This document shows, one piece after another, positions 26,165 through 26,298 of a stretch of 41,035 bases of DNA; positions within the stretch are counted from its first letter, which is position 1; each line of letters starts with the position of its first letter. The notes under the pieces were generated by a model. It was given only the letters and a program-made list of their open reading frames with translations, was not told the DNA's origin and made no database searches. Location: contig CAZLQC010000003.1 in NCBI GenBank assembly GCA_964561695.1, positions 1 through 41,035 of the forward strand, given 5' to 3'. The DNA comes from an uncultured Bdellovibrionales bacterium. GTDB lineage: Bacteria; Patescibacteriota; Minisyncoccia; Moranbacterales; UBA1568. Position numbers and translations under genes: made by a program.

Positions 26165-26298
26165 TATGCCCAGTGGGACAATTTCAAGAAAGACGTCCAA
26201 AAAGCTGACTAAGAAAGTAGCTTGTAAAGGGGTAATTAAGAGAATGATTGCTAGGAAAATTTTAGAATACATAACTTGAAATAGTACCACTGGGTATG
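26165..26298 (+). repeat. start-codon-abutting palindromic element, copy C (core 26169-26294; flanking direct repeat TATG)
   Basis: 5' arm CCCAGTGGGACAATTTCAAG (26169-26188) pairs with 3' arm CTTGAAATAGTACCACTGGG (26275-26294). The interior is clearly homologous to copy B. Confidence 0.85.

What the first reader, a model, noticed from the sequence alone, without database searches (positions are those of the whole stretch)
26165..26298. leuS is transcribed from its own promoter straight into element copy C, so the full hairpin is the leuS 5' UTR
A good promoter (TTGATT-N17-TATAGT, 26122-26150) predicts a start about 10 nt upstream of copy C. The leuS leader therefore consists essentially of the element alone. 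Its 3' arm, together with the U and the AUG, forms the only sequence preceding the coding region. Copies B and C are clearly homologous internally, sharing GAAAG..GUC..AAAA.GCU...UAAGAAAGUA and UUUUAGAAUA.AUAACUUGAAAUAGUA. Copy A shares only the arms. The arms are thus the selected part and the interior is free to drift or be swapped. Weak similarity between B and C also appears to extend roughly 40 nt upstream of the elements (GGCT..AAT.TAGC...TAGAGA), which suggests that promoter and element were duplicated together.
Basis: partly seen in the sequence, partly recalled or inferred. Interest (0 to 1): 0.65.

Follow-up and report, generated by a model that had tools for sequence, protein, structure and literature searches.

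The report
Mobile hairpin that lands on start codons
The long hairpin in front of leuS is a recently inserted copy of a small mobile DNA element, widespread in Patescibacteria, that sits exactly on start codons and duplicates them; it is not an evolved leuS regulator, and how the gene is still translated is an open question.

Summary
Window 26165-26298 is TATG, a 126-nt palindromic element and TATG, and the last ATG is the leuS start. It lies 15 nt downstream of a TTGATT-N17-TATAGT promoter. Syntenic relatives keep the same terminator, promoter and start codon but lack the element. A nearly identical riverine strain also lacks copies B and C, with the gap bounded by the TATG repeat. So the hairpin is a recent insertion with a 4-bp target duplication of the start codon. 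Scans found 68 non-redundant copies, almost all in contigs labelled Patescibacteria. Sixty of them abut a start codon of unrelated housekeeping genes, always in one orientation. The 20-bp arms are conserved and covary, while the interior is free. Arms stay about 98% identical in orthologous copies whose interiors have drifted to 68-82%. The claim that promoter and element were duplicated together is refuted. I read it as a MITE-like element. It resembles Neisseria Correia elements in architecture but has an unreported specificity for start codons. leuS is most likely transcribed through it from the native promoter. No RNA data were available, so the start site and the way the hairpin is neutralised remain inferred: RNase III-type cleavage, the duplicated AUG, or an internal -10 box.

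The parts
26098..26118 (+). Terminator-like hairpin that ends the response-regulator transcription unit
   Evidence: 9-bp stem followed by a T-run. An equivalent hairpin sits at the same place in L035, L036 and L037.
26122..26150 (+). Native leuS promoter TTGATT-N17-TATAGT. The predicted start is near 26157, about 8 nt before the element.
   Evidence: The hexamers and 17-nt spacing are conserved in the element-free orthologous loci L035, L036 and L037.
26165..26168 (+). 5' copy of the duplicated target TATG, which is the original leuS start-codon position
   Evidence: The empty sites read ...gtttATGgaaaac in L035. The X14 contig joins 26163 to 26294 with 5 ambiguous letters.
26169..26188 (+). 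5' arm (terminal inverted repeat) CCCAGTGGGACAATTTCAAG of copy C
26189..26274 (+). Variable A/T-rich interior of copy C, containing a -10-like TAGAAT at 26263-26268
26275..26294 (+). 3' arm CTTGAAATAGTACCACTGGG of copy C
26295..26298 (+). 3' copy of the duplicated target TATG. ATG 26296-26298 is the leuS start codon.
26296..29175 (+). leuS (959 aa, with a NUDIX domain inserted)
25507..25535 (+). Native promoter of the response-regulator gene, TAGCCA-N17-TACACT, ending 12 nt before the 5' ATG of copy B
   Evidence: Read from the sequence. The same architecture is present in L035, L036 and L037. It falls below the threshold of the scan.
25547..25681 (+). Copy B: TATG, 127-nt element (25551-25677), TATG. 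ATG 25679-25681 starts the response-regulator gene.
   Evidence: Empty alleles are seen in L035-L037 and in runs X5 and X14, which skip 131 nt with 4 ambiguous letters.
8596..8727 (+). Copy A: AATG, 124-nt element (8600-8723), AATG. The 5' AATG overlaps the stop TAA (8595-8597) of the upstream gene, and ATG 8725-8727 starts tgt.
   Evidence: The empty site TAATG is in L084, and an orthologous filled site is in L085.
39582..39663 (-). Diverged short relative (82 nt, arms CCCGGTATCACAAT / ATTGTGGTACTGGG). It has no ATG duplication and lies 41 nt upstream of the manC-like start at 39540.

Best explanation
Copy C is a non-autonomous, MITE-like palindromic mobile element. It consists of 20-bp terminal inverted repeats and an ~85-nt free interior. 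It inserted exactly at the leuS start codon and duplicated TATG, so one ATG stays with the promoter side and one stays with the gene. These points are shown: it is an insertion, it is recent, and it belongs to a family found almost entirely in Patescibacteria-labelled contigs. That family sits on the start codons of unrelated genes in one fixed orientation. The native leuS promoter predates it and lies 15 nt upstream. The rest is inferred. The primary leuS transcript starts near 26157 and carries the whole element. The element then folds into a stem of 20 arm positions, two of them non-Watson-Crick, extended by up to 4 flank pairs that bury the AUG. The native leader is only about 8 nt and the genes of this window show no Shine-Dalgarno sequence, so the hairpin must be neutralised for leuS to be translated. 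My preferred step, at about 35%, is cleavage of the long duplex by an RNase III-type enzyme. That would leave a short-leader mRNA like the native one, as reported for Neisseria Correia elements. The need for an intact duplex would explain why the arms stay conserved in fixed orthologous copies. The alternatives are listed as rivals. The enzyme that moves the element, and the reason it ends up on start codons, are unknown.
For: Empty sites: L035 (LeuRS 81% identical), L036 and L037 keep atpG-atpD-atpC-RR-leuS synteny, the terminator, the promoter and the ATG. They lack copies B and C, and the difference is exactly the element plus one TATG. Strain polymorphism: contigs of riverine runs X5 and X14 join 25546 to 25678 (131 nt skipped, 4 ambiguous letters). 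An X14 contig joins 26163 to 26294 (130 nt skipped, 5 ambiguous letters). The flanks differ by 0/135, 7/263, 1/83 and 6/61 nt. Wastewater and freshwater runs carry the filled alleles. Family: 34 genome loci and 44 metagenome loci give 68 non-redundant oriented copies. Sixty abut a start codon that opens an ORF. Flanks are identical 4-mers in 56 copies: TATG in 50, plus AATG/AATG, CATG/CATG twice, CTTG/CTTG at a TTG position and CAGG/CAGG twice. None has CATA flanks. Only 18% of the non-coding NATG sites in this window are start codons, against 88% of elements at start codons (p 1.6e-36). The downstream genes are unrelated: glyA, ispH, ligA, ftsA, scpB, secDF, pilB, blaI/blaR1 and others. Stem: 97.4% of cells are paired and 10 of 18 pairs change on both sides. 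The covariation score is 0.308 against 0.118 for shuffles (0 of 500 reach it). In-situ constraint: in the orthologous copies window A/L085 the arms are 39/40 identical, the interior 68% and third codon positions of tgt 70%. In L041/L047 the arms are 40/40 identical, the interior 82% and the upstream flank 60%. No Shine-Dalgarno motif precedes the window's genes. The fold buries the AUG.
Against: No transcript data exist for this organism or for any other copy. The start site, the formation of the hairpin in vivo and any cleavage are therefore untested. No autonomous element with the same ends and no transposase was seen in the ~560 kb examined. Mismatches in the stem are as often A.C as G.U. 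There is thus no signature that the sense-strand RNA, rather than DNA, is the selected structure. Arm conservation in orthologous copies could also come from gene conversion between copies or from repeated excision and re-insertion at the same site. L012 and L057 carry elements with unrelated interiors at the same gene start. An RNase III gene was not found in the fragments searched, which is uninformative at this sampling.
Confidence: 0.8

Rival explanations
1. Internal outward promoter. The element carries a -10 box just before its 3' arm, so the translated leuS mRNA starts inside the element with a leader of about 20 nt (the 3' arm alone), and the long stem never forms in it.
For: A -10-like hexamer ends 17-26 nt before the element's 3' end in 34 of 58 dereplicated copies. 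About 34% is expected from the rest of the interior (p 1.5e-4), and 14 of 58 show it in the reverse orientation. Seven copies have a perfect TATAAT at a fixed position. B and C have TAGAAT (C: 26263-26268). This would explain the fixed orientation. Correia elements and Neisseria REP2 repeats are reported to carry promoters (PMC3184786).
Against: No matching -35 is present, and the sigma-70 scan finds no promoter inside B or C. The native promoters in this genome do have -35 boxes at 17 nt. About 40% of copies lack the box, including most of the GTGCGAC-arm subfamily. The model gives no reason for the arms to stay conserved in fixed orthologous copies. It also does not explain why insertions must sit exactly on the ATG.
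Confidence: 0.2
2. The duplicated start codon is used. Ribosomes load on the 5' AUG, which keeps the native promoter-proximal or stop-codon-overlapping context. Either they open the stem by translating the short upstream ORF, or they transfer across the base of the hairpin to the identical 3' AUG. The second route would be a bacterial analogue of ribosome shunting or of codon-to-codon bypassing.
For: The insertion always leaves an identical start codon on both sides, including a TTG/TTG case. The reading frame from the 5' ATG is open through the whole 5' arm in every copy, with a minimum of 8 codons. In copy C it runs 37 codons and stops at TGA 26277-26279, 16 nt before the leuS ATG. In operon-internal copies the upstream stop codon lies 0-12 nt from the stem base (copy A has TAATG). 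Razor-sharp placement on the ATG is what such a mechanism would require.
Against: The length and stop position of the upstream ORF are not conserved; the stop lies 11-104 nt before the 3' ATG. Termination-reinitiation therefore cannot be general. The 5' AUG is itself in the stem. No shunting has been shown in bacteria (my own knowledge). Identical flanks are also simply what a target-site duplication produces.
Confidence: 0.15
3. One reading: the hairpin is an evolved leuS leader that controls leuS through RNase III or by occluding the start codon.
For: The stem is stable and buries the AUG. The promoter reads into it.
Against: The hairpin is absent from three syntenic relatives and from a nearly identical strain. 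The same element fronts tgt, a response regulator and more than 50 unrelated genes in other genomes. No Rfam family, T-box included, matches.
Confidence: 0.04
4. On mobility: the element moves as a folded single-stranded hairpin handled by a tyrosine recombinase, in the manner of integron attC sites or Xer-dependent elements, rather than by a DDE transposase. The shared core triplet ATG would then fix its orientation.
For: The outer 8 bp are conserved in sequence. The centre carries constant asymmetric mismatches, G.A at position 8 (built into the search pattern) and A.A or A-T at position 11. The inner 8 bp only covary. The central part is variable. This layout mirrors the R box, spacer, L box and variable part of attC (my own knowledge). 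Orientation relative to the asymmetric flank is 100% fixed. Tandem head-to-tail arrays occur (L026, L042, L043, L080, L009). One copy precedes a tyrosine recombinase gene (L009).
Against: Non-TATG flanks are mostly identical on both sides (AATG, CATG, CTTG, CAGG). That is what a staggered-cut duplication gives and is not expected from strand exchange within a core. There is no match to the attC R-box consensus and no array next to an integrase. The L009 recombinase may be ordinary XerC/D.
Confidence: 0.2

Closest known systems
Correia / nemis elements (CREE) of Neisseria
   Same: Both are 100-155-bp non-autonomous elements with ~20-26-bp terminal inverted repeats. Both have many copies per genome, often 5' of genes, and are co-transcribed so the repeats form a long RNA hairpin. 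Correia elements are reported to carry promoters (PMC3184786). De Gregorio and colleagues reported that they are cut by RNase III (my own knowledge).
   Different: Correia elements duplicate TA and show no start-codon placement. They insert in both orientations, have conserved interiors and are confined to Neisseria (my own knowledge). The present family duplicates (N)ATG, sits on start codons in 88% of copies in a single orientation and has free interiors. Nearly all its copies come from Patescibacteria-labelled contigs.
Neisseria REP2 repeats and Borrelia IR sequences
   Same: These repeats lie immediately upstream of ORFs and supply a promoter and the ATG (PMC3184786). The present element also ends at the ATG and often has a -10-like box near its 3' end.
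   Different: REP2 repeats have no terminal inverted repeats and include a ribosome-binding site. No target duplication or empty-site evidence is described for them in that review. The present element has neither a Shine-Dalgarno sequence nor a -35 box.
Rickettsia palindromic elements (RPE) and other in-frame repeat insertions
   Same: Palindromic mobile repeats that are tolerated at or inside coding regions. In L026 three tandem 138-nt units lie in frame and open inside a pilin-like ORF.
   Different: RPEs are translated as part of the protein. In the present family nearly all copies lie before the ORF and contain stop codons in the frame from the 5' ATG.
Integron attC sites
   Same: Both are imperfect inverted repeats with sequence-conserved outer boxes, covarying inner boxes, constant unpaired bases and a variable centre of 60-140 nt. 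Both are flanked by a repeated triplet.
   Different: The RYYYAAC/GTTRRRY consensus is absent and the elements are not arrayed beside an integrase. They are dispersed at the start codons of core genes.
Translational bypassing elements (phage T4 gene 60; 'byp' insertions in Magnusiomyces mitochondria)
   Same: Both are hairpin-forming insertions flanked by identical codons on the two sides.
   Different: Bypassing elements lie inside ORFs and are shown to be hopped by elongating ribosomes (my own knowledge). In the present family the repeated codon is the initiator and nothing has been shown experimentally.

Membership tests
MITE (miniature inverted-repeat transposable element) | Terminal inverted repeats | tested here: met
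   The arms are 20 bp, 97.4% of cells are paired across 52 distinct copies, and 10 of 18 pairs covary.
MITE (miniature inverted-repeat transposable element) | Target-site duplication shown against an empty site | tested here: met
   Empty orthologous sites exist for copies A, B and C. Empty alleles occur in a sibling strain, with 4-5 ambiguous letters at the joint. The duplication is (N)ATG, mostly 4 bp.
MITE (miniature inverted-repeat transposable element) | Small, non-coding, several copies per genome | tested here: met
   Elements are 99-142 nt. The frame from the 5' ATG closes after 8-42 codons. The 41-kb window holds 3 canonical copies, and single MAGs hold 5-6 exact-pattern copies.
MITE (miniature inverted-repeat transposable element) | A cognate autonomous insertion sequence with the same ends | tested here: inconclusive
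   No arm pair 220 nt or more apart and no transposase was found in ~560 kb of loci or in the window. Whole genomes could not be scanned.
Correia element (CREE/nemis) | TA target duplication | tested here: not met
   The flanks are (N)ATG, and copy A's AATG/AATG cannot be read as TA.
Correia element (CREE/nemis) | RNase III cleavage of the transcribed hairpin | not testable with these tools
   No RNA data.
Known structured RNA leaders (Rfam, including the T-box leader common before aminoacyl-tRNA synthetase genes) | Match to a curated covariance model | tested here: not met
   No family reaches its gathering score in the whole window. Only chance-level hits (E of at least 3.7) occur in 25400-26450.
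Integron attC site | R''/R' boxes RYYYAAC ... GTTRRRY, and location in a cassette array beside intI | tested here: not met
   The arms read CCCRGTGNGACAAC / GTWGTANCACYGGG. Copies are dispersed before core genes.
IS200/IS605-derived palindromic elements (PATE) | No target duplication, and a constant cleavage tetranucleotide at the element's own right end | tested here: not met
   The 3' tetranucleotide varies together with the 5' flank (AATG, CATG, CTTG, CAGG).
REP / REPIN | Each arm is itself a short palindrome carrying a GTAG or CGTC tag, located beyond the 3' ends of genes | tested here: not met
   No such tag or intra-arm palindrome is visible in the arm sequences. The location is at start codons.

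The most novel reading that the evidence does not exclude
The family is a mobile element that actively targets start codons. The host then expresses the hit gene by moving the ribosome from the duplicated upstream AUG, or from an overlapping stop codon, across the base of an intact hairpin to the identical downstream AUG. This would be a natural bacterial form of ribosome shunting or initiator-codon bypassing. It would explain the exact placement, the fixed orientation and the in-situ conservation of the arms.
Probability: 0.1. Interest if true: 0.9.

Novelty: new variant of a known kind. Interest (0 to 1): 0.66.

Why it matters
If the pattern holds, this is a transposable element whose surviving insertions sit almost only on start codons. 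They do so in one orientation, in front of essential genes such as leuS, ligA, ftsA and secDF, in bacteria with very small genomes whose genes, in this window, show no Shine-Dalgarno motifs. Two questions become testable. The first is how a DNA element finds, or is filtered onto, start codons. The second is how these organisms initiate translation when a 20-bp-plus stem buries the AUG. The naturally occurring filled and empty alleles of the same gene in sibling strains provide a ready-made experiment. The result also warns annotators that conserved hairpins before genes in these genomes are mobile DNA, not gene-specific riboregulators.

Tried and rejected
(1) A conserved leader peptide or termination-reinitiation from the 5' ATG. 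The upstream ORF is 8-42 codons long and its stop lies 11-104 nt before the gene's ATG, so it is not conserved.

(2) A bias towards G.U over A.C mismatches that would mark sense-strand RNA pairing. The counts are about equal.

(3) Known RNA families. None matched at gathering or E-value thresholds.

(4) Transcript evidence. One thin wastewater RNA run has nothing on the element, and no RNA runs were found for the wider operon or for locus L042.

(5) Simple survivorship among non-coding ATG sites as the cause of start-codon placement. The expected share is 18% and the observed share is 88%.

(6) An autonomous parent element. No distant arm pairs and no transposase were found in the window. The one lone 3' arm (L014) appears to hold a nested different repeat.

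(7) Phage carriage. There were no matches in viral contigs.

(8) An RNase III signature in the fetched DNA. None was found, which is uninformative at this sampling.

(9) Literature. Searches by topic and by the arm sequences themselves found no description.

(10) Co-duplication of promoter and element. This is rejected by the empty sites and by the chance-level upstream similarity.

Full report
**What is at the coordinates**

Window 26165-26298 reads TATG, then a 126-nt element, then TATG. The element has a 5' arm CCCAGTGGGACAATTTCAAG at 26169-26188, an A/T-rich interior, and a 3' arm CTTGAAATAGTACCACTGGG at 26275-26294. The final ATG (26296-26298) opens a 959-aa leucyl-tRNA synthetase ORF.

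The arm motif is far above chance, with 6 hits on the two strands against 0.04 expected. As RNA the region folds into one long stem that includes the start codon. Its energy is -41.1 kcal/mol against -22.7 for shuffles, z -5.7.

It directly follows a terminator-like hairpin at 26098-26118.

Two more copies have the same anatomy:
- Copy B is at 25547-25681, before a response-regulator gene.
- Copy A is at 8596-8727, before tgt.

B and C are 76% identical in the interior, whereas A shares only the arms. The suggested similarity upstream of B and C is at shuffle level.

**It is an insertion, and a recent one**

I fetched the loci of the closest LeuRS relatives. L035 (81% protein identity), L036 and L037 keep the gene order atpG-atpD-atpC-response regulator-leuS. 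They also keep the terminator hairpin and a -35/N17/-10 promoter in front of leuS. Their intergenic spacers are about 130 nt shorter.

L035 reads ttcttgattattggcttaaattggcatatagtagaggtactctgtttATGgaaaacctc. The window reads ttcttgattattggctctaattagcatatagtagagatactttgcgtATG[ccc...gggtATG]gaaaacctc. The response-regulator gene shows the same pattern, with a conserved TAGCCA-N17-TACACT promoter 12 nt before the ATG.

For tgt, L084 (91% identical Tgt) has the native overlapping stop/start TAATG. The window has TAATG[ccc...gggaATG].

Assembled contigs of two riverine DNA runs from one sample give the same answer at strain level. They join 25546 to 25678 (131 nt skipped, 4 letters fit either side). 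They also join 26163 to 26294 (130 nt skipped, 5 letters fit either side). The flanks differ from the window at 0/135, 7/263, 1/83 and 6/61 positions. Wastewater and freshwater runs carry the filled alleles.

So copies B and C, including the one in the finding, are polymorphic among close strains. Each difference is exactly one element plus one copy of TATG.

**It is a family almost entirely from Patescibacteria-labelled contigs that sits on start codons**

A two-arm pattern found 34 loci in species-representative genomes and 44 in metagenome contigs. Almost all come from contigs labelled Moranbacteria, Saccharibacteria, Paceibacterota or Patescibacteria. A few come from bins with other labels that I suspect are wrong. 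One hit, in Agromyces, is a chance match. There were none in viral contigs.

Of 68 non-redundant oriented copies, 60 are followed within 0-2 nt by a start codon that opens an ORF. The flanks are TATG/TATG in 50 copies. Where they differ from TATG they usually differ in the same way on both sides: AATG/AATG, CATG/CATG twice, CTTG/CTTG at a TTG position, and CAGG/CAGG in two units of a tandem array. This is the behaviour of a 3-4-bp target-site duplication. No copy has the reverse-complement flank CATA, so the orientation relative to the gene is fixed.

The genes behind the elements are unrelated housekeeping genes. They include glyA, ispH, ligA in two lineages, ftsA, scpB, secDF, pilB, blaI/blaR1 and pcm.

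In this window only 29 of 163 non-coding NATG sites are start codons, that is 18%, against 88% of elements (p 1.6e-36). Mere survival of non-disruptive insertions therefore does not explain the placement. Either the insertion machinery finds start codons, or selection against every other intergenic position is very sharp.

Tandem and nested copies at a single start codon point the same way (L009, L042, L043, L080). So do elements with unrelated interiors at the same gene start in two lineages (L012 and L057).

**Anatomy of the arms**

The stem spans 20 positions. Positions 0-7 (CCCRGTGN) are conserved in sequence. Position 8 is G opposite A in every copy, which the search pattern partly imposes. 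Position 11 is A.A or A-T. Positions 12-19 vary but stay complementary.

On 52 distinct arm pairs, 97.4% of cells pair and 10 of 18 pairs change on both sides. The covariation score is 0.308 against 0.118 for shuffles, and none of 500 shuffles reaches it. Mismatches are as often A.C as G.U. The data therefore show selection for complementarity but do not say whether RNA or DNA is the relevant strand.

One result goes beyond inheritance from a master copy. In orthologous, fixed copies the arms remain almost identical while the surroundings have drifted:
- Window copy A against L085: arms 39/40, interior 68%, third codon positions of tgt 70%.
- L041 against L047: arms 40/40, interior 82%, upstream flank 60%.

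L085 is the outgroup to the window, L082 and L084 by two proteins. The tgt copy is therefore probably old and was lost precisely in L084, restoring TAATG.

**What this means for leuS expression**

A transcript from it would begin about 8 nt before the element. The native leader is therefore only about 8 nt, or about 5 nt for the response regulator. None of 32 gene starts in the window has a Shine-Dalgarno motif, and a T at -1 is common.

Family-wide, about a third of copies have a -10-like box 4-9 nt before the 5' ATG. About a quarter lie within 30 nt of an upstream gene's stop codon. Inserting a -41 kcal/mol stem that buries the AUG should block initiation, yet essential genes tolerate it repeatedly. 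I could not obtain any transcript data, so the mechanism is inferred.

- My preferred reading is that the co-transcribed duplex is cut by an RNase III-type enzyme. This would regenerate a short-leader mRNA. It is by analogy with Correia elements, and it is consistent with the in-situ conservation of the arms.
- The second reading is an internal outward promoter. A -10-like hexamer is enriched 17-26 nt before the 3' end, in 34 of 58 copies against about 34% expected (p 1.5e-4). It appears in only 14 of 58 in the reverse orientation. B and C carry TAGAAT there. However, there is no -35 box, the promoter scan finds nothing inside B or C, and this reading leaves the arm conservation unexplained.
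- The third reading is that ribosomes use the duplicated 5' AUG. They would either open the stem by translation or transfer across its base. The upstream ORF covers the 5' arm in all copies but is otherwise not conserved.

**Comparison with known systems**

The architecture of terminal inverted repeats, target duplication, small size, many copies and co-transcribed hairpin is that of a bacterial MITE. It is closest to Neisseria Correia/nemis elements. The habit of ending at the ATG of the downstream ORF recalls Neisseria REP2 and Borrelia IR repeats (PMC3184786).

It differs from all of these in four respects: the start-codon duplication, the single orientation, the free interior, and a host range that in these scans is almost entirely Patescibacteria-labelled contigs. 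It fails the defining features I could test for Correia (TA duplication), attC, IS200/IS605-derived elements, REP/REPIN and every Rfam family.

Literature searches by topic and by the arm sequences found no description. That library is incomplete, so 'unreported' means unreported there.

**Verdict**

Co-duplication of promoter and element is refuted, and the idea of a leuS-specific leader is contradicted by the element's mobility. The finding is best described as a new variant of a known kind, a start-codon-associated MITE.

Noticed in passing
window 26296-29175 (aa 390-509): The LeuRS carries a NUDIX domain inserted after the editing domain. The same architecture, sometimes with an extra alpha/beta-hydrolase domain, is shared by most of the 120 best homologues, which come from Paceibacteria/Parcubacteria-type sources.
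   Followed up: partly
window, all gene starts (e.g. 3034, 6693, 15923, 23634, 29179): None of 32 gene starts shows a Shine-Dalgarno motif and most have T at -1. The conserved promoters of leuS and the response regulator end only 12-15 nt before the ATG, which implies leaders of about 5-8 nt.
   Followed up: partly
window 39582-39663 (minus strand): A fourth, diverged 82-nt relative of the element has a 14-bp stem and no ATG duplication. It lies 41 nt upstream of the manC-like gene start and is followed at once by TATACT.
   Followed up: partly
L026 2957-3374: Three tandem 138-nt units are flanked by CAGG and lie inside a pilin-like ORF. They are in frame and free of stop codons, so they may be translated, as Rickettsia palindromic elements are.
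   Followed up: partly
L009 4888-5963: A 30-nt mini-derivative (outer arms only) sits in tandem with a full element. Both are flanked by ATG, directly before a XerC/D-like tyrosine recombinase gene.
   Followed up: no
L042, L043, L080 (upstream of the listed copies): An older, diverged 3' arm (e.g. GTCGAAGTTTCACTGCCGGGT) ends at the TATG where the next full element begins. This indicates repeated insertion at the same start codon.
   Followed up: no
L012 vs L057; L006 vs L014: The same gene start (a DHH-family gene) carries elements with unrelated interiors in two lineages. ligA is fronted by an element in two distant lineages.
   Followed up: partly
L084 2490-2510 vs window 8590-8730 vs L085 2365-2505: The tgt copy is shared with the outgroup L085 but absent from the closer relatives L084 and L082. 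L084 has exactly TAATG, which suggests scar-free loss of the element.
   Followed up: yes
L001, L002, L006, L007, L010, L012, L020-L022, L024, L025, L033, L034, L084: Several MAG records carrying the element are titled Bdellovibrionales or Gammaproteobacteria. Their genes and synteny match the Patescibacteria-like window (for example L084 Tgt is 91% identical), so the bin labels look unreliable.
   Followed up: no
L014 (minus strand) about 5500-5800: A 3' arm abuts an ATG with no 5' arm within 220 nt. The stretch before it holds a different inverted repeat (gtcattccgagc...ctcggtcgagatgac), possibly another small element nested inside.
   Followed up: no
window 35063-36358: A 431-aa ORF with no Pfam match lies next to a tRNA-Leu(CAA) gene at 36435-36518 on the minus strand.
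   Followed up: no
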